From positions 119,724,001-119,788,000 of the forward strand of contig CM059431.1 of assembly GCA_030390025.1 (NCBI GenBank): DNA of 64,000 bases, read 5' to 3'. The stretch's first letter is position 1; each line of letters begins with the position of its first letter. The DNA comes from Squalus acanthias. Lineage: Eukaryota. A program made the translations under genes and the position numbers. This document shows positions 13,178 to 42,269 of this stretch, one piece after another. Under the pieces are notes generated by a model. The model was given only the letters and a program-made list of their open reading frames with translations. It ran no database searches and was not told where the DNA came from.

Positions 13178-15450
13178 TCATAGAGTCATAGAGTCATAGA
13201 ATCACAATGGCACAGAAGGAGGCCATTCGGCCCATTGAGTCCGTGCCGGCTCTCTGTAGCGCAATCCAGTCAGCCCCATTCCCCCGCTCTATCCCCGTAG
13301 CCCTGCAAGTTTATTTCCCTCAACTGCCTATCCAGTCTCCCCTTGAAAACATTGAGTGTCTCCGCTTCCACCACTTTCATCGGCAGCGAGTTCCAGGTCC
13401 TCACCACTTGCTGCGTAAAAAAGTTTTTCCTCATGTCCCCCCTGTATCTCTTGCCCAAAAACTTAAATCTGTGTCCCCTAGTCCTTGTACCATCAACTAG
13501 TGGGAACACCTTTCCCCGTCTAGCCTATCCAAACCCGTCAAAATCTTGTACACCTCTATCAAATCACCCCTCAACCTCCTTTGCTCTAATGAAAACAAAC
13601 CCAGCTTCTCCAACCTGTCCTTGTAGCTAAGATCCCCCATCCCCGGAACCATTCTGGTAAATCTCCTCTGCACCCTCTCAATGGCCTTCACATCCTTCCT
13701 AAAGTGCGGTGACCAGAACTGGACACAATATTCCAGTTGTGGCCTAACAAGCGCTTTATAAAGGTTCAGCATAACTTCTCTACTTTTGTACTCAATACCT
13801 CTATTTATGAAGCCCAAGATCCCATATGCTTTGCTAACTACTCTCTCAATATGTCCCGCCACCTTCAGGGACCTATACACATTAACTCCCAATTAGCTTA
13901 GCCAAACACAATCTGCCTTTTACAAATCCGTGTTGGCTCTCCTTAATTAGCTTAAACCTTTCCAAGTGCCAATTAATTTTTTCCTTGATTATTGTTTCTA
14001 AAACTTTACCCACCACTGATGTTAAACTGACCGGCCTGTAGTTACTAGGATTGTCCTTACACCCTTTCTTGAACAATGGTGTCACATTTGCCACATTCCA
14101 ATCCTCAGGCACCTCCCCTGCATCTAGGGAAGATTCCAAAATTATGGCAAGCCCTTCCGCTATTTCCTCCCCCAATTCCCTTAGCAACCTGGGATGCAAG
14201 CCATCTGGACCAGGTGACTTATCCATTCTAAGCATACCCAACCTTTCTAGTATATCCTGTCTATCAATTTTCACCCCTTCCATTGCTTCTATCTTTTCCA
14301 CTTCTACCGATATTTTGTCAGCATCCACCTCCTTAGTAAACACCGATACAAAGTACTAATTGAGTATTCTAGTCTTGCCCTGCACCTCTAAGCATATCAC
14401 CTTCTTTGTCCCTAATAGGCCCCACCCCGCCTCTTACTACCTGCTTACTGTTTACATGCCGGTAGAAGATTTTTGGGTTCCCTTTTATGTTAACTGCCAT
14501 TCTACTCTCATATTCTCTCTTTGCCAATCTTATTTTCATCTTCACTTCCTCTCTCAACTTATTGTATTTGGTCTGGTTCTCCCTTGAAGAATTCACCTGA
14601 CATTCATCGTACACCCTCTTTTTTTGTTTCATCATCTTCTCTATCTCCCTCGTCATCCAAGGAGCCCTTGCTTTGGTTCTCTTACCCTTCCCTCTTGTTT
14701 GAATGTACCTAGCCTGTACTTGGAACATCTCCTCCTTAAAGATTACCGTTGTTACCATTGTTCCGTTACAGTTTTCCCTGTCAGTCTTTGGTTCCATTTT
14801 ACCCTGGCTAGATCCTTTCGAATCCCATTGAATTTAGCCCTATTCTAGTTTAGAAGTTCCACTCTTGATTGTTCCTTGCTTCCTCTCCATTGCTAATCTA
14901 AATCTTATGATACGATGATCACTCGTACCCAAGTGTTCTCCCACAGACACTTGGTCGATCTGGCCCACCTCATTCCCCAGCACCAGATCCAGCAATGCCT
15001 CCTTCCTAGTTGGGCCAAGAACATACTGGTCAAGGAAATTCTCCTGAACACATTTCAGAAATTCCTCCCCCTCCTTTCCCTTTACCCTAGCATTATCCAA
15101 ATCGATATTTGGGTAATTAAAGTCCCCCAATATCACCACTCTATAGCTCTTGCATATCTCTGCGATTTCCCTGCAGATTTGCTCCTCTACCTCCCTCTCA
15201 CTATTTGGAGGCCTGTAGAATACCCCCAATAGCGTGATCACACCCTTTTTGCTCCTTAACTCTAAAAAAATGGATTCTGTCCTTATCCCCTCAAGAACAT
15301 CCTCCCTTTCCAACACTACAATGTCTTCCTTAATGAGCACTGCCACCTCACCTCCCTTTTTTCCTTCCCTATCTTTTCAGAACACCTTGTACCCTTTAAT
15401 ATTAAGTGCCCAGTCCTCACCATTTTTAAGTCCCGTTTCCGTTATTGCTA
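13178..15450 (-). mobile_element. CR1 LINE, 5'-truncated, internally deleted ORF2 (APE endonuclease + partial RT)
   Basis: GVFYRPP, GDFNYP, LDLVL, SDH (endonuclease); KSPGPDG, NYRPVSLTS, QHGF (RT); YKALVRPQLEYCVQFWSP; (tcatagag)n tail at 13178-13200. Confidence 0.95.
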
Positions 15451-15584
15451 GACAGTGCCCACAATTCGGTATCATTGCTAGAGCGTGCCCAGAATGCCCA
15501 TATCTTAAGTGAAACATGGATTTTCCTCTTTTTGGAAGATAAGGACATTAAAATTAGGTTATCTGCTTGAAACATGCCTTAGGA

Positions 15585-18500
15585 CATCAACAACAGCAAC
15601 AAAGTAGTAAAACGTGCCAAGGTGCTTCACAAGACTATAATAAAACAAAAACTTTGACACCGAGCCACTTAAGGAGAAATTAGGGCAGGTGACCAAAAGC
15701 TTGGTCAAAGAGGTAGGTTTTAAGGAGCATCTTAAAGGAAGAAAGATAGAGAGGCAGAGATGTTTAGGGAGGGAATACCAGAGCTTAGGGCCTAGACAGC
15801 CGAAGGCACGGCTACCAATTATTGAGCGATTATAATCAGGGATGCTCAAGAGGGCAGAATTAGAGGAGCGCAGATATCTCGGCTGTTTGTGGGCCTGGAG
15901 GAGATTACAGAGAAAGGGAGGGGCAAGGTCAGGGAGGGATTTGAAAACAAGGATGAGAAGTTTGAAATCGAGGCATTGCTTAACTGGGAGCCAATGTAGG
16001 TCAGCGAGCACAAGGGTTATGGGTGAACAGGACTTGGTGCGAGTTAGGACATGGGCAGCCGAGTTTTGGATGACCTCAAGTTTACGTAGGGTAGAATGTG
16101 GGAGGTCAGCCAGGAGTGCGTTGGAAGAGTCCAGTCAATAAAAAAGGCATGGGTGAGGGTTTCAGCATTGGATGAGCTGAGGCGGGGCGGAGACAGGCGA
16201 TGTTATGGAGGTGGAAATAGGCGGTCTTAGTTATGCCGCGGATATGTGGTCAGAAGCTCATTTCAGGGTCAAATATGGCACCAAGGTTGCGAACATTGTG
16301 GTTCAGCCTCAGACAGATGTTAGGGAGAGGGATGGAGTCAGTGGCTAGGGAACAGAGTTTGTGGCGGGAAACGAAAACAATGGCTTCGGTCTTCCCAATA
16401 TTTAATTGAAGAAAATTCCTGCTCATCCAGAACCAGATGTCGGACAAGCAGTCTGACAATTTAGAGACCGTGGATGGGTCGATAGAAGTGGTGCTGAGGT
16501 AGAGCTGGGTGTTGTCAGCGTACATGTGGAAACTGACGCTGTGTTTTCAGGATGATGTCGCCAAGGGGCAGCATGTAGATGAGAAATAGGAGGGGGCCAA
16601 GGATAGATCCTTGGGGGACATCAGAGGTAAGCAGAAATAAAAGCCATTGCAGGTGTTTCTCTGGCTACGATTAGATAAATAAAAATGGAACCAAGTGAGT
16701 GCAGTCCCACCCAGCTGGACGACGGTGGAGAGGCGTTGGAGAAGGATGGAGTGGTCAACCATGTCAAAGCTGCAGACAAGTCAAGAAGGATGAGGAGGGA
16801 TAGTTTACCTTTGTCACAGTCACAAAGACTGTCATTTATAACTTTGATGAGAGCCGTTTCGGTACGGTGGCAGGGCGGAAACCTGATTGAAGGGATTGAA
16901 ACATGGAGTTGCGAAAAAGACGGGCACGGATTTGGGAGGCGACAACACGTTCAAGGACTTTGGAGAGGAAAGGCAGATTGGCGATGGGACGGTAGTTTGC
17001 AAGGACGGAGGGGTCAAGGTTTTTTTTTGAGAGGGGTGATGACGGCAGATTTGAGAGAGGGGGGTCAGTACCTGAGGAGAGAGAATCATTAACAATGTCA
17101 GCTAACATGGGAGCCAGAAAATGAAGTTGGATGGTCAGCAGTTTGGTGGGAATAGTGTCGAGGGAGCAGGAAGTGGGTCTCCTGGACAAGATGAGCGTGG
17201 AGAGGTCATGAGGAGAGTTTGGAGAGAAACTGGAGAAAGATGCGAGATCAGGGCTAGAGCAGGGGGGAACCTTAGAGGAAGTTTGGCCCGGTGGGCTAGG
17301 GAAGGAAGGGAAGTGGCAGAGGCAGCTCAACGGATGGTCTCAATCTTAGAGACAAAGAAGTCAATGAGCTCCTCACACTTGTTGTCGGAGGTGAGGGTGG
17401 AGGAGATAGGGGAGAGGGGTTTAAGAAGACGGCTAGCAGTAGAGAATAGAAGCTGAGGTTTATCTTTGCATTCCAGAATGATTCTGGAATAGTGAGCAGT
17501 TGTGGCAGAGAGCAGGACCCGATAGTGCTTTATGTGGTCCAGCCAGATCTGGCGGTGAATGACTAAACCAGTTGTCCGCCATTTCCGTTCAAGTCTACAT
17601 CGCTTGGACTTAAGGGAGTAAAGATGAGGGCCGTACCAGGGGGAATGGACAGGGTGAGAGAGGGTAATTGTTTTAACAGGGACTAGGGCATCAAAGGTGG
17701 TGGTGAGGGTGTGGTTGAGCAGATAGGTAGCTGCAGAAATGTTGTGGTGAATGGAGGGCCAAAGGCTTCACAGTTGGGATTTTGTAAGTGTAGTTGTAAG
17801 AGAGAGGGCCAAAAATTTGGCCCTTCCCGGGTGAGTACACAGTCTGTACTCGTCCGTAATGCGTCCCGAAGTGCCGGTTTCCTGCATGCACTGCGCATGC
17901 GCGGGAAACCGGAACTTCCGGTATGGTGAAGGGGCGGTTCCTAGGTGAACCGCGTGCTTGCTAGAGGCTGCGCGCACGCAGCAAACTTAGGTTTTTTTTC
18001 AGGTTTCTACGCGAGGGTAAGTATTGAAGAAACTACGCTATTAAAAAGGAGGCGCAAGACCCGTTTTCAACAAGGTAAGTGGTTAATTAAGTATAATTTA
18101 AAAAAAATTTCAACAGGTTTATCTTTTTTAGATACTTTAAAGAAAGGTAAGTTTATTTTTATCACTTTTAAAAAGTATTTTAATTTTTTCAAAAATTTAA
18201 ATTTTTGTTTAAAGTGGTTAATTTATTTAAATATAGTTATTTTATAAATGTGATGGTTTTTTTTAAATTTATTTTAAGTTTAGCTGTTCTTTTGGGGCCG
18301 ATTTCAATTCACAGATTTGACAGGTCTCCTGTCAAATCTATGAATGAAAGATGGTCTGCTGCCATTGGCTCTCCATGGCCCACATGATCCCAGGGGACGC
18401 ATCGCATTAACTGCGCCCCTGGAACACGCAAGCACTGCGCGCCGGCACTTGGAGCAGGCCCAGGACCCGAAGTTCCCGTGGGCCCAAAACACAACGGCAG

Positions 18501-39322: not shown

Positions 39323-40158
39323 TGTAAGATCTCACTCCTGAGACCTACAGGTTATTGATTCTTACTTGATATTTACGAGAAATTACACGAGACACACGAG
39401 TTCCATCTTTAAGATATTATTGTCCTTAAGACAGATTCAAAACCCCTATCACTATTGCTCTGAATTCAAGCAGTACACCAATAATGTTACAAGAGATCAT
39501 ACATACAGCCACCCGCTGATGATCAGTCCAGTGTTGATTTTAGGTCCTTGTAGGCGAGATGACTGGCCAGGCCAACTCCTTCCGACTGCAGTGCTGATAT
39601 CTTTTAGTCCCTGTCTTTTATACAGTTCTTGTTCTTCTCCGTAAATTTCCATCATGCAGGGGCTGTGAGGGTCGTTCCTCCAATGTTCAGCTTAAGTTGT
39701 CCGAGCCGTCAATCTCTCAAAAATACACATCTTGTGTCTACTGACCGTTGTTATTTGCAGATGTGGTCGGCCGACCATTTGGCCACAATACAGATTGTGC
39801 AAAACTCGTTAACTCATGTCCTGTTTTGCAGAACTCCCAAGGTCTGTCTCCTCCCTTCAGCTACAGATGTCTTATTTTATGACCCCGAGGCCCCAAGGCC
39901 GTTCACACCACTTGCCTGAAGATGTACCTGTCTTGGTCACGCCCAACCGTTTGTTCCTGCTCAGGGTCTGTTGCTTCCTGAACTGATTAACAGCTTGCAG
40001 CCTTCACAGCACATAGTCGCAGTAGTTTATTTTACATTTGTTCAGCAGAAAGCCTCTCAAGGAAAGCTGGTACATTAAATTAGGTCAACTTTTAAGTTTG
40101 GTCACGTTACAGCAAACTTTTACAGCAAAAGATTACAGCACATGCTTATTTTCTTACA
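39323..40158 (-). mobile_element. Solo LTR, 836 bp
   Basis: Inverted termini tgtaaga / tcttaca, 4-bp TSD AATC (39319-39322, 40159-40162); minus-strand TATAAAA near 39616-39622. Confidence 0.8.
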
Positions 40159-40214
40159 AATCATGCTCCTACAATTGCTGTCGGACACCGATTTGGATAT
40201 TTAAACAGCCTGTT

Positions 40215-40460
40215 TAGAGTCACATCGAGTCACAACGGCACAGAAGGAGGCCACTTGGCCCATCGAGTCCGCGCCGGCTCTCTGCAGTGCAATCCAGCCA
40301 GTCCCACTCCCCCGCTCCATCCCCGCAGACCCGCAAGTCCACCTCCCCCAAGTGCCCATCCAGTCTCCCCCCGAAAATGTCGAGAGTCTCCGCCTCCACC
40401 ACCTCCGTCGGCAGCGAACTCCAGGCCATCACAACTCGCCGCGCAAAAAAGCCTCTTCTC
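40215..40460 (-). mobile_element. CR1 3' fragment with massive sense-strand A-to-G change
   Basis: Colinear with 13201-13432 but about 30 plus-strand T-to-C substitutions. Confidence 0.9.
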
Positions 40461-42269
40461 TCCTCTTCTGTTGTTGGAAACAGGCTAGTGGGCTGCTCAG
40501 CCATTTACAGGCTCTCCTGAAAATTATATCAGGCGAGCTTTGGGCATCAATGGGTGGCTGAGGTGCCCCCCTGCCCCGCCCCACTGACCTCACTTTTTCA
40601 ACGGCCAGATGCCTATTTTCAGCTGACTGTTGACCTTCCCCATCAGCTTTCTCATGGCTTCAAATTTTTTCTTGGCACATCGCTTATAAAAATCAGCTCC
40701 TGCTTTCGTCCTGAGTTAGTTACCTCATATTTGAAGAGAGCAGGTGCCGTGGAGAAAATGTAAAAGTTTGATAAACAATTCCAGTTTTGTATTCATATGG
40801 GAGCTGATTTCCTTTGTATTGATTTCTGCTCCGCACGATGGCCTCCTGCAGTCATGGTAAGATTCACCACACAGGCCCATGGCTGAATCTCTAGAAATTG
40901 CTCTGCCTCCCTCTAGAGAATTGCCAAGCAGTGTCACAGCTAAGATTGGGAGCTTAGCGTATGAAGTAAGTCCACTGTAACAGATGTGAATCCACATCCA
41001 ACTACTGCAGTTTGTGATGGTATTCATGCTGCAATATACAGCACCACCATACAGACAGAAAATTGCCAGCTTGTTGTTGCTTACCTCTTCAGGGAGAATG
41101 TGCAAATGTTAATTGTTCTGTTTCACATATCACATGAATTCCCAGTTTTCCAATCAGATGCAGATGAGATGTACGGATGTAGTCTGTATCCAATATTTCA
41201 CATACGACTCCCCATGTGGAAAAACAGCAAGTGGGGTCTGTAACAGACATGTCTTCACACTGCTAATGAACAACAGGATTTGCTTGAAACTTGGTAAAGG
41301 GTTGTTTATTATTTGCTTCAGACTCAGGTTGAAATCCGGTAAAGGAAATTGAAATGAAGACTATTAATAACCTAATAGTTGATCTCTTGTAGTGTTAATG
41401 ATGAACATAAGTGCATTCCTTTCTTGGCATTATTGTCCCTATGCTTGTCTTTCTCTACTTATTTCGGTTTTACTCGGGTGAATTTCACAATCCTGTGTTC
41501 CCATCAGGGAAGGCATGCTCCAAAGGAGATGAGGTCAAATATGGACTGTAACATTGTAGCTTCTATTCTCTGGCCCATACTACCTTTGAGGGTAGCTCTC
41601 TACTGTTAACACAGGATTTACCATATGTCACCTACCTTTTTGTGTTTGTTTTTCCTCTTCTTCCTTTTTCCTCTTTCTTTCTCTCTCGCTCTCTCTCTTT
41701 CTGTCCCCTTTTCCCCTCTGTCTGCCTCTTACATAATGAATGGCATTGTAAGGGATTGCCTTGGAACATCTGGTCTAAGCACTGCTGAAAGTATTACAGT
41801 GCTTCTTTTGCAGATCATATATGTGTTGCTGTCAGGCTCAGCTTGGGTGTTTAATGTACCCTACTCACCATACACAACAATGGGCCAACTGTATGGAAAG
41901 GGTTAATCAGACTTCAAGTCTGCTAATGTAATACTGCAATTGAGTTTTCTTTGTATTGTAGTAATGTTAGCTTTTAAGCTTTGTTTGTTAAGTAGGGAAG
42001 TATGATTCTTAAATTGTAATATCTGAAAATAGTTACAAGATTACAGCAACTCGAAGGTAATATCACCTGCTTAATGAGAAAAGTTAATAGGAGACATGGA
42101 TAAGAAAGGATTACTAAATTCAGCAGCACAATGACAGGACAGGCAGAAAAGCTCCCTTTGTACCAAAGAGAAAGAGAAAGATTTCATTAGAAGGGAGGCC
42201 ATCCCTTTGTTACCTCCAGACTGGATATTCCAATGCTTTCCTGACTGGCCTCCCATTGTCCACCCTCCA

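What the first reader, a model, noticed from the sequence alone, without database searches (positions are those of the whole stretch)
40215..40460. CR1 copy that looks like a genomic fossil of an ADAR hyper-edited (A-to-I) retrotransposon RNA
Seen: manual alignment to the sibling CR1 3' end at 13201-13432 gives about 44 substitutions in about 230 nt. About 30 are plus-strand T-to-C (A-to-G on the LINE sense strand), against about 5 C-to-T. Many are outside CpG (gtttatttccct to gtccacctcccc). The peptide shifts accordingly (KNFFTQQ to RGFFARR, FKG to FGG, INLQGY to VDLRVC). Context is non-random: about 4 of 25 adenosines with a 5' G changed, versus about 26 of 35 in other contexts and 6 of 6 with a 5' U. 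Established: ADARs disfavour a 5' G and prefer 5' U/A, and inosine is reverse-transcribed as G. Inference: the LINE RNA was hyper-edited as dsRNA in the germline and then inserted by target-primed reverse transcription. That would be a heritable record of ADAR acting on LINEs in a shark, distinct from APOBEC G-to-A editing.
Basis: partly seen in the sequence, partly recalled or inferred. Interest (0 to 1): 0.9.

Follow-up and report, generated by a model that had tools for sequence, protein, structure and literature searches.

The report
ADAR-type hyper-edited CR1 LINE fossil
A short copy of a shark jumping gene has half of its adenines turned into guanines on one strand, in the pattern left by the RNA-editing enzyme ADAR, so it is most likely an edited RNA that was copied back into the inherited genome, and a few other copies of the same family show the same mark.

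Summary
Window 40215-40469 is a 5'-truncated 3' end of a CR1-like LINE (sense on the minus strand). Against the column majority of 59 other genomic copies it has 27 A>G of 55 adenines, versus 1 T>C, 3 G>A and 1 C>T. Other copies have 0-4 A>G. Adenines after a 5' G changed in 3 of 26 cases, all others in 24 of 29 (p=1e-7).

Older related families carry A at these sites, so G is derived. No genomic copy is more than 86% identical to the target, while the sibling has many at 95-96%, so it is not a subfamily. Contigs from a second sample and two differently labelled organisms carry the same state at the locus, where they cover it.

Exhaustive word searches found further A>G-clustered copies (L062, with 60 A>G vs 5 T>C in two blocks, and L067, L063, L065) among at least 16,415 copies.

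[quoted passage not shown] I found no printed precedent for LINEs. Retroviral A-to-G hypermutants are the nearest known case.

The parts
40215..40469 (-). 5'-truncated 3' end (ORF2 C-terminus plus 3' UTR and tail) of a CR1-like LINE, hyper-mutated A>G on its sense strand
   Evidence: A/G-merged alignment to the sibling gives 94.9% over 255 nt, against 81-82% unmerged. The best genome hits are 84-86% identical.
40230..40458 (-). Span scored against the family majority, with 27 A>G sites. The + strand shows C at 40233, 40254, 40272, 40285, 40298, 40307, 40318, 40326, 40332, 40339, 40340, 40342, 40343, 40348, 40357, 40371, 40372, 40381, 40394, 40403, 40419, 40426, 40440, 40444, 40452, 40453, 40455.
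   Evidence: Ten other substitutions lie at 40256, 40288, 40329, 40378, 40379, 40385, 40418, 40428, 40433, 40457.
40333..40356 (-). Densest stretch, with 5 edited sites in 24 nt. It was used as an exhaustive genome word.
   Evidence: There are 5 places in the genome at 2 or fewer mismatches. The unedited form from the sibling has 16,415 places.
40203..40211 (+). Possible target-site duplication, left copy (AAACAGCCT). Weak evidence.
   Evidence: the repeat finder family D3, 8 of 9 identical to 40478-40486. Short two-copy repeats are often chance.
40478..40486 (+). Possible target-site duplication, right copy (AAACAGGCT). Weak evidence.
13189..13441 (-). Unedited sibling 3' end of the same family, used as comparison
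   Evidence: It has many genome copies at 95-96% identity. Its ORF2 C-terminus ends ...GDRAGEWG*.

Best explanation
A transcript carrying the 3' end of this CR1-like LINE formed a long duplex with an antisense copy of the same repeat in a germline or early-embryo cell. An ADAR enzyme deaminated about half of its adenosines to inosine, sparing those preceded by G. The LINE reverse transcriptase then used this RNA for target-primed reverse transcription and read inosine as G, and the 255-nt 5'-truncated cDNA became a fixed insertion.

Shown here:
- the strand-specific A>G burst, its density and its neighbour rule;
- the derived polarity of the G state;
- the uniqueness of the copy in the genome;
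- its presence at the same locus in other samples and related organisms;
- recurrence of the mark in other copies of the family.

Inferred: the enzyme, the duplex partner, and that editing came before integration.
For: 1. One-strand burst: 27 A>G against 1 T>C (27 of 57 majority A against 1 of 46 majority T in the span). An earlier, shorter alignment gave 24 of 54 against 1 of 50, Fisher p=1e-7. This excludes strand-symmetric processes.

2. Density: 49% of all adenines and 83% (24 of 29) of adenines not preceded by G. This is the level known for promiscuous ADAR editing of long perfect duplexes (recalled: about 50-60%).

3. Neighbour rule: 5' G 3/26 against T 7/7, A 12/15, C 5/7 (p=1e-7). The second copy, L062, gives T 18/87, A 22/132, C 12/92, G 8/153 (p=3.5e-4). 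Passages I read in PMC8586724 state that A after A, C or U is targeted more often than A after G, citing Polson & Bass 1994 and Lehmann & Bass 2000.

4. Polarity: five copies of older related families (67-74% identical) have A at 16-21 of the 27 sites and G at 5-6. The other majority-A sites show similar proportions.

5. Not a lineage. No genome copy is more than 86% identical, and no copy shares more than 4 of the 27 sites. L062's block 1 also has no hit above 90% (5652 candidates, 40 scored). The A>G sets of the edited copies are not nested. Sharing with the target equals what independent editing with the same 5'-G rule predicts: L062 shares 8 against 8.4 expected, L067 5 against 4.7.

6. 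Ordinary age apart from the burst: 10 non-A>G substitutions in 229 nt, like other copies.

7. Block structure in L062: 32 A>G of 141 A in block 1 and 24 of 74 in block 2, but 1 of 166 upstream and 3 of 68 between the blocks. This is as expected if only duplexed segments are edited.

8. Real, inherited DNA: see the run evidence.

9. A_deamin (PF02137) exons above cut-off lie on six contigs of this genome.
Against: - No RNA evidence. No listed run holding the stretch is on record as RNA, so editing of CR1 RNA in this animal is not shown.
- The sense RNA of the 3' end alone folds no better than shuffles (z=+0.65). A separate antisense partner must therefore be assumed and cannot be identified.
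- The 3' neighbour shows no bias in the target (G 8/16, C 8/15, A 7/15, T 4/9) and only a slight trend in L062 (G 24/152 against others 36/312).
- In L067 the 5'-G avoidance is not significant outside the ascertaining word (4/20 against 5/15, p=0.45). In L063 and L065 it is not significant either.
- The extra copies were found with words taken from the target, so they could only be sense-strand A>G copies. I could not run the mirror search for copies with sense T>C clusters, so strand specificity across the family is untested.
- A word taken from L062's ORF2 block found only L062 itself.
- In cell culture, human L1 RNA showed no ADAR1 editing (PMC5224506, passages read).
- The second sample of organism A may be the individual that was assembled (warning).
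Confidence: 0.8

Rival explanations
1. Polymerase hypermutation. The LINE reverse transcriptase (rA:dC mispairs on the first strand) or the second-strand polymerase (dT:dG mispairs) made serial errors under a skewed dNTP pool during this one insertion.
For: It would also give a one-strand burst of a single transition type, confined to the newly made copy. Hypermutation by retroviral RT with biased dNTP pools is known in vitro (recalled, not read here).
Against: Changing 83% of non-G-preceded adenines in one pass is far above known polymerase error rates. An excess of dCTP should favour extension when the next templated base is the 5' G, which predicts enrichment, not the observed depletion. 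An excess of dGTP on the second strand predicts a 3'-G effect, and none is seen. These last points are inference. The two sharply bounded blocks in L062 are not expected from a pool effect acting along a whole cDNA.
Confidence: 0.07
2. Mutation of the DNA after insertion, acting on one strand. Candidates are ADAR acting on the DNA strand of an RNA:DNA hybrid (R-loop) at the locus, an unknown adenine deaminase on single-stranded DNA, or error-prone patch repair.
For: Nothing here shows directly that the changes came before integration. The flanks cannot be polarised for the period before the species split. ADAR deamination of dA in DNA/RNA hybrids has been reported in vitro (recalled, not read here).
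Against: The burst ends with the element at both ends in the target. In all the copies examined it lies on the LINE sense strand, though ascertainment forces this. Pol-eta-type WA bias does not fit 5/7 edited after C, and the density is too high for repair errors. In the TPRT hybrid the DNA strand is antisense, so deaminating it would give sense T>C, of which there is 1.
Confidence: 0.06
3. Wrong polarity or lineage. The target keeps an older G-rich state and the abundant family descends from a G>A (APOBEC-type) mutated master. Or the target belongs to a small G-rich subfamily.
For: Majority rule alone cannot give the ancestral state. Three of the 27 sites are G in 8-12 of the 59 copies.
Against: Outgroup copies of older families have A at 16-21 of the 27 sites. 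There is no 3'-neighbour bias of the kind APOBEC leaves. No copy is closer than 86%. The edited copies are not nearer to one another than to normal copies (target against L062 84%), and their site sets are not nested.
Confidence: 0.03
4. GC-biased gene conversion, CpG effects, or an assembly or sequencing artefact.
For: Some sibling-against-target differences are CpG decay in the sibling: pairwise 30 A>G falls to 27 against the majority.
Against: Biased conversion is strand-symmetric, but the counts are 27 A>G against 1 T>C. Most sites are outside CpG. Contigs from other runs and organisms carry the same letters.
Confidence: 0.02

Closest known systems
A-to-G hypermutated retroviral proviruses ascribed to ADAR (RAV-1 and avian leukosis virus: Felder et al. 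1994, Hajjar & Linial 1995; HTLV-2/STLV-3: Ko et al. 2012). Cited as given in PMC8586724, of which I read passages only.
   Same: An RNA template is hyper-edited A-to-I on one strand, reverse-transcribed with I read as G, and fixed as DNA with clustered A>G.
   Different: Those are exogenous retroviruses, with cytoplasmic reverse transcription, studied in infected cells. Here it is a non-LTR LINE copied by target-primed reverse transcription, fixed in the germline of a cartilaginous fish and shared between related organisms.
APOBEC-edited endogenous retroelements (G-to-A clusters in LTR elements; Knisbacher & Levanon 2016, PMC4866542, passages read; Zaranek et al. 2010, PMC2873906, passages read)
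   Same: A deaminase hypermutates a retroelement during its copying cycle, and the mutated copy still integrates and is inherited. It is detected as clusters of a single mismatch type against relatives.
   Different: Those involve cytidine deamination of minus-strand DNA after reverse transcription, giving G>A with a 3'-neighbour motif. Here the change is A>G with 5'-G avoidance, which implies an RNA-stage adenosine deaminase. PMC4866542 left non-LTR elements out and used A-to-G only as a filter.
Hyper-edited repeat RNAs in transcriptomes (Porath et al. 2014, PMC4365171; Porath et al. 2017, PMC5625713; search listing and abstracts only)
   Same: Dense A-to-G clusters in repeat-derived duplex RNA with G depleted upstream. 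They are detected by merging A and G before alignment, as I did.
   Different: Those are RNA-against-DNA differences that are not inherited. Here the G is in the genome itself.

Membership tests
ADAR hyper-editing footprint | A>G on one strand only | tested here: met
   Target 27 A>G against 1 T>C. L062 60 against 5 over 1.65 kb, where 11 control copies show 2-13 against 1-13.
ADAR hyper-editing footprint | Dense clustering, up to about half of all adenines in the duplexed stretch | tested here: met
   27 of 55 A in the target. L062 blocks have 32/141 and 24/74, against 1/166 outside them. Normal copies have 0-4 per copy.
ADAR hyper-editing footprint | 5' neighbour preference, with G disfavoured | tested here: met
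   Target G 3/26 against non-G 24/29, p=1e-7. L062 G 8/153 against non-G 52/311, p=3.5e-4. Not significant in L063, L065 and L067. The rule is quoted from PMC8586724.
ADAR hyper-editing footprint | 3' neighbour preference (G favoured; recalled) | tested here: inconclusive
   The target is flat. L062 gives G 24/152 against others 36/312.
ADAR hyper-editing footprint | Long double-stranded RNA substrate | tested here: inconclusive
   The self-fold of the 253-nt sense RNA is -71 kcal/mol, z=+0.65 against shuffles, so there is no long intramolecular duplex. A duplex with an antisense copy is plausible given at least 16,415 copies, but it is not shown.
ADAR hyper-editing footprint | ADAR-type deaminase encoded by the host | tested here: met
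   PF02137 exon matches above cut-off on six contigs. Which of them are ADAR1 or ADAR2 rather than ADAD or ADAT1 was not resolved.
ADAR hyper-editing footprint | Inosine or A-to-G seen in the RNA against the source DNA | not testable with these tools
   No RNA holder was listed, and the source element is unknown.
CR1-clade non-LTR LINE | ORF2 with an apurinic-type endonuclease and a reverse transcriptase | tested here: met
   Exo_endo_phos_2 (E=1.4e-11) and an RVT_1 piece lie upstream of the sibling on the same strand. RVT_1 lies directly upstream of the 3' end in family copies (L011, E=5e-13).
CR1-clade non-LTR LINE | 3' end without poly(A), ending in short octamer repeats of the ATTCTRTG type (motif recalled) | tested here: met
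   The sibling's sense strand ends ...GTGATTCTATGACTCTATGACTC. That this matches the CR1 motif rests on recall.
CR1-clade non-LTR LINE | Placement inside the CR1 clade in an RT phylogeny | not tested
   No tree was built. 'CR1-like' is therefore provisional (L2 and Rex1 were not excluded).

The most novel reading that the evidence does not exclude
In the germline of this shark lineage, transcripts of an abundant CR1-like LINE are recurrently hyper-edited by ADAR and still complete retrotransposition, so the genome holds a readable fossil record of ancient germline A-to-I editing. That record preserves site choice, block length and neighbour preference. ADAR would then act as a mutagenic brake and diversifier of LINEs in a vertebrate that lacks the mammalian APOBEC3 system (that absence is recalled, not tested here).
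Probability: 0.5. Interest if true: 0.8.

Novelty: new variant of a known kind. Interest (0 to 1): 0.66.

Why it matters
Whether ADAR editing of retroelement RNA ever reaches the inherited genome has mostly been assumed rather than shown. A 2016 review of retrotransposon restriction says that such a role for Alu has 'not yet been determined' (PMC4982230, passage read). Cell-culture work found no editing of human L1 RNA (PMC5224506).

A germline-fixed LINE copy with a near-saturated ADAR signature, plus further independent copies in the same family, makes the question countable. Three things follow:
- The rate (a few per 16,000 copies here), the edited block sizes and the site preferences can be read from genomes alone, and across species.
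- Hyper-edited RNA can serve as a template for target-primed reverse transcription.
- It is a one-step source of large sequence jumps: here 12% of the bases, nine or more amino-acid changes and the loss of a stop codon.

Tried and rejected
- A/G-merged alignment with +1/-1 scoring was too permissive (58-62% 'matches' over kilobases). It was replaced by stricter scoring.
- Extension beyond 40469: no homology to the family was found even with A and G merged. The element is truncated there, and 40470-40477 remains unexplained.
- Expression: no RNA holder was listed for the stretch.
- Contigs: no listed piece spans the whole stretch. Sites 40254, 40272, 40285 and 40298 are not covered by a listed locus-specific piece.
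- Self-fold as the source of the duplex: no support.
- Pooled A>G excess in the other copies (67 against 15 T>C). This is a retrieval artefact. It sits in the 29 copies retrieved with the target as query (54 against 7), not in the 30 retrieved with the sibling (13 against 8).
- L064: only 3 A>G, all inside the ascertaining word, so it is not counted as edited.
- Word from L062's ORF2 block: no second copy found.
- L067 upstream of about locus 1299: not homologous to the family, so the bins there are alignment noise.
- Target-site duplication: only an 8-of-9 match of 9 nt, which is weak.
- Earlier notes of this scan: three look-ups, nothing relevant.
None of the listed papers I checked describes a germline LINE or SINE copy with an ADAR footprint. 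Knisbacher & Levanon 2015 (Ann N Y Acad Sci, pmid 25722083) is not held, so I could not check it. No supplements were read.

Full report
WHAT IS THERE

Window 40215-40469 is the 3' end of a LINE whose sense strand is the window's minus strand. It matches the sibling at 13189-13441 at 81.9% over 237 nt. The sibling's sense strand encodes the end of ORF2 (...RKNFFTQQVVRTWNSLP...GDRAGEWG*) and ends in short octamer repeats.

Family copies have an RVT_1 domain directly upstream of this 3' end (L011, E=5e-13). Upstream of the sibling, on the same strand, lie an Exo_endo_phos_2 endonuclease and an RVT_1 piece. It is therefore an APE+RT non-LTR element. 'CR1' rests on the tail motif, which I recall rather than tested.

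The family is very abundant. An unedited 24-mer from the sibling has 16,415 places in the 3.7-Gb genome at 2 or fewer mismatches.

THE OBSERVATION

I collected 60 loci, 30 with the sibling as query and 30 with the target as query. I extracted 62 pieces of 200 nt or more, dropped 2 distant ones (73% and 69% identity), and aligned the remaining 60. Against the column majority of the 59 others, the target shows:
- 27 A>G out of 55 scorable adenines;
- 1 T>C, 3 G>A, 3 G>T, 1 C>T, 1 A>T, 1 T>A.

The result is the same whichever half of the sample supplies the majority. The other copies have 0-4 A>G each. Identity to the majority is 83.8%, and 95.6% once A>G is ignored. Merging A and G raises the identity to the sibling to 94.9% over 255 nt and shows that the element runs to about 40469. 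The quoted peptide changes are there, and the stop codon is lost as well.

THE CONTEXT RULE

Adenines preceded by G changed in 3 of 26 cases. Those preceded by T, A or C changed in 7/7, 12/15 and 5/7 cases (Fisher p=1e-7). The 3' neighbour is flat. Avoidance of a 5' G is the textbook ADAR rule (PMC8586724, passages read).

POLARITY

Majority rule could mislead if the big family came from a G>A-mutated master. Five copies of older related families (67-74% identical) carry A at 16-21 of the 27 sites and G at 5-6. The other majority-A sites show similar proportions. A is therefore ancestral and the target's G is derived.

NOT A SUBFAMILY

With the target as query, the best non-self hits are 84-86% identical (3712 candidates, 40 scored). 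The sibling has dozens at 95-96%. No copy shares more than 4 of the 27 G.

REAL AND INHERITED

Contigs of public runs were laid on 39900-40800, and sites were counted.
- A second sample of the same organism label has a 1715-nt contig over 40299-40800 with 2 differences. It covers 22 of the 27 sites. A 123-nt contig over 40130-40252 has none.
- A run labelled as another organism has a 155-nt contig over 40354-40508 with no difference. It covers 13 sites and the 5' junction.
- A third organism has a 1444-nt contig over 40386-40800 with 22 differences and 14 gap letters, about 5% divergence. Of these differences 18 are listed, and none lies on the 9 edited sites it covers. The other 4 are not listed.

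The insertion, already edited, therefore appears to predate the split of these organisms. Four sites (40254-40298) are not covered by a listed locus-specific piece. The second sample may be the assembled individual.

RECURRENCE (new in this stage)

An exhaustive search with the target's own densest 24-mer (5 edited sites), allowing 2 mismatches, found 5 places, against 16,415 for the unedited form. A second target word found one further place.

Scored against the same majority:
- L062 (contig 13) is a long copy with 60 A>G against 5 T>C over 1.65 kb. The 11 long control copies show 2-13 against 1-13. The changes sit in two blocks (32 of 141 A and 24 of 74 A), with 1 of 166 upstream and 3 of 68 between. 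G is disfavoured 5' (8/153 against 52/311, p=3.5e-4).
- L067 has 13 A>G against 1 T>C in 194 nt.
- L063 has 9 A>G and L065 has 8, both with 0 T>C.
- L064 has only 3, all inside the search word, and is not counted.

Outside the ascertaining words the counts are 11/45, 9/35, 5/45, 5/50 and 0/45 (L062, L067, L063, L065, L064). The background is about 0.4 per copy (13 A>G in 30 copies).

The site sets are not nested, and the overlap with the target equals the expectation for independent editing under the same 5'-G rule. L062's first block is also unique in the genome: the best other hit is 90% identical (5652 candidates, 40 scored). The target and L062 share one private non-A>G change, which could mean a common source lineage. 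A word from L062's ORF2 block found no further copy.

MECHANISM

The pattern has five features: one strand, one transition type, about half of all adenines, G avoided upstream, and sharp block edges. Together these are what promiscuous ADAR editing of long duplex RNA leaves, and inosine is copied as G. The host has A_deamin exons on six contigs.

The 3' end does not fold into a long hairpin on its own (z=+0.65). The duplex partner was therefore probably an antisense copy, within the same transcript or a separate one. With more than 16,000 copies, mostly 3' ends, such partners should be plentiful (inference). The edited RNA was then copied by target-primed reverse transcription and truncated at 255 nt.

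Not shown here: the RNA step, the partner, the source element, and whether the RNA was used in cis or in trans.

RIVALS

- Polymerase hypermutation under skewed dNTP pools would give a one-strand burst. It does not predict 5'-G avoidance, the 83% saturation of editable sites, or L062's blocks.
- A post-insertion DNA process, including ADAR on RNA:DNA hybrids, is not excluded. I could not polarise the flanks or run the mirror search for sense T>C clusters.
- Reverse polarity or a subfamily is contradicted.
- Biased gene conversion is contradicted by the 27:1 asymmetry.
- An assembly artefact is contradicted.

WHAT IS KNOWN

ADAR-type A-to-G hypermutants of retroviruses are known (cited in PMC8586724). 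APOBEC G-to-A fossils in LTR elements are well described; that survey left out non-LTR elements and used A-to-G as a filter (PMC4866542).

ADAR1 restricts human L1 without detectable editing (PMC5224506). A review states that a role of ADAR editing in Alu evolution is undetermined (PMC4982230).

Eight full-text searches turned up no report of a germline LINE copy with this footprint. One possibly relevant paper (pmid 25722083) is not held.

VERDICT

It is a new variant of a known kind: deaminase-hypermutated retroelement fossils, here made by an RNA adenosine deaminase on a non-LTR element. The event is rare (a handful among at least 16,000 copies in the two spots searched) but recurrent.

Noticed in passing
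L062 (G000 contig 13, locus positions about 607-1049 and 1341-1539): A long copy of the same LINE family has two separate A>G blocks (60 A>G against 5 T>C in 1.65 kb) and almost none elsewhere. It is a better specimen than the target for mapping duplex boundaries. Its sequence further upstream was not fetched.
   Followed up: partly
L067 (G000 contig 4, locus positions about 1299-1700): A copy of about 400 nt with 13 A>G against 1 T>C in 194 aligned nt, concentrated in the 5' part of the 3'-end region. The 5'-G avoidance is not significant here.
   Followed up: partly
window 39900-40160: The left flank of the target is itself repetitive (summed contig word depth in the thousands, against about 9-43 for the single-copy right flank at 40458-40800), so the CR1 fragment lies beside or inside another repeat. 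That repeat's family was not identified.
   Followed up: no
window 40551-40566: A C-rich tract with small insertions that differ between contigs and runs, including a 14-nt insertion in the contig of the third organism.
   Followed up: no
window 13441-17339, minus strand: Upstream of the sibling 3' end lie an endonuclease domain (14840-15376), an N-terminal RVT_1 piece (13882-14355) and a second RVT_1 piece (16836-17339). The spacing is too short for an intact ORF2, so these are deleted or nested LINE copies.
   Followed up: partly
59 normal family copies (loci L002-L060): Their private substitutions are dominated by G>A and C>T (84 and 68 of 326 pooled, indels included), the pattern of CpG decay. 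This suggests that these repeats are methylated in the germline.
   Followed up: no
window 40378 and L062: The target and L062 share one private non-A>G change (sense G>A) that is absent from all 59 normal copies. It is a hint that both edited RNAs came from one source lineage, for example a master copy lying next to an inverted copy.
   Followed up: no
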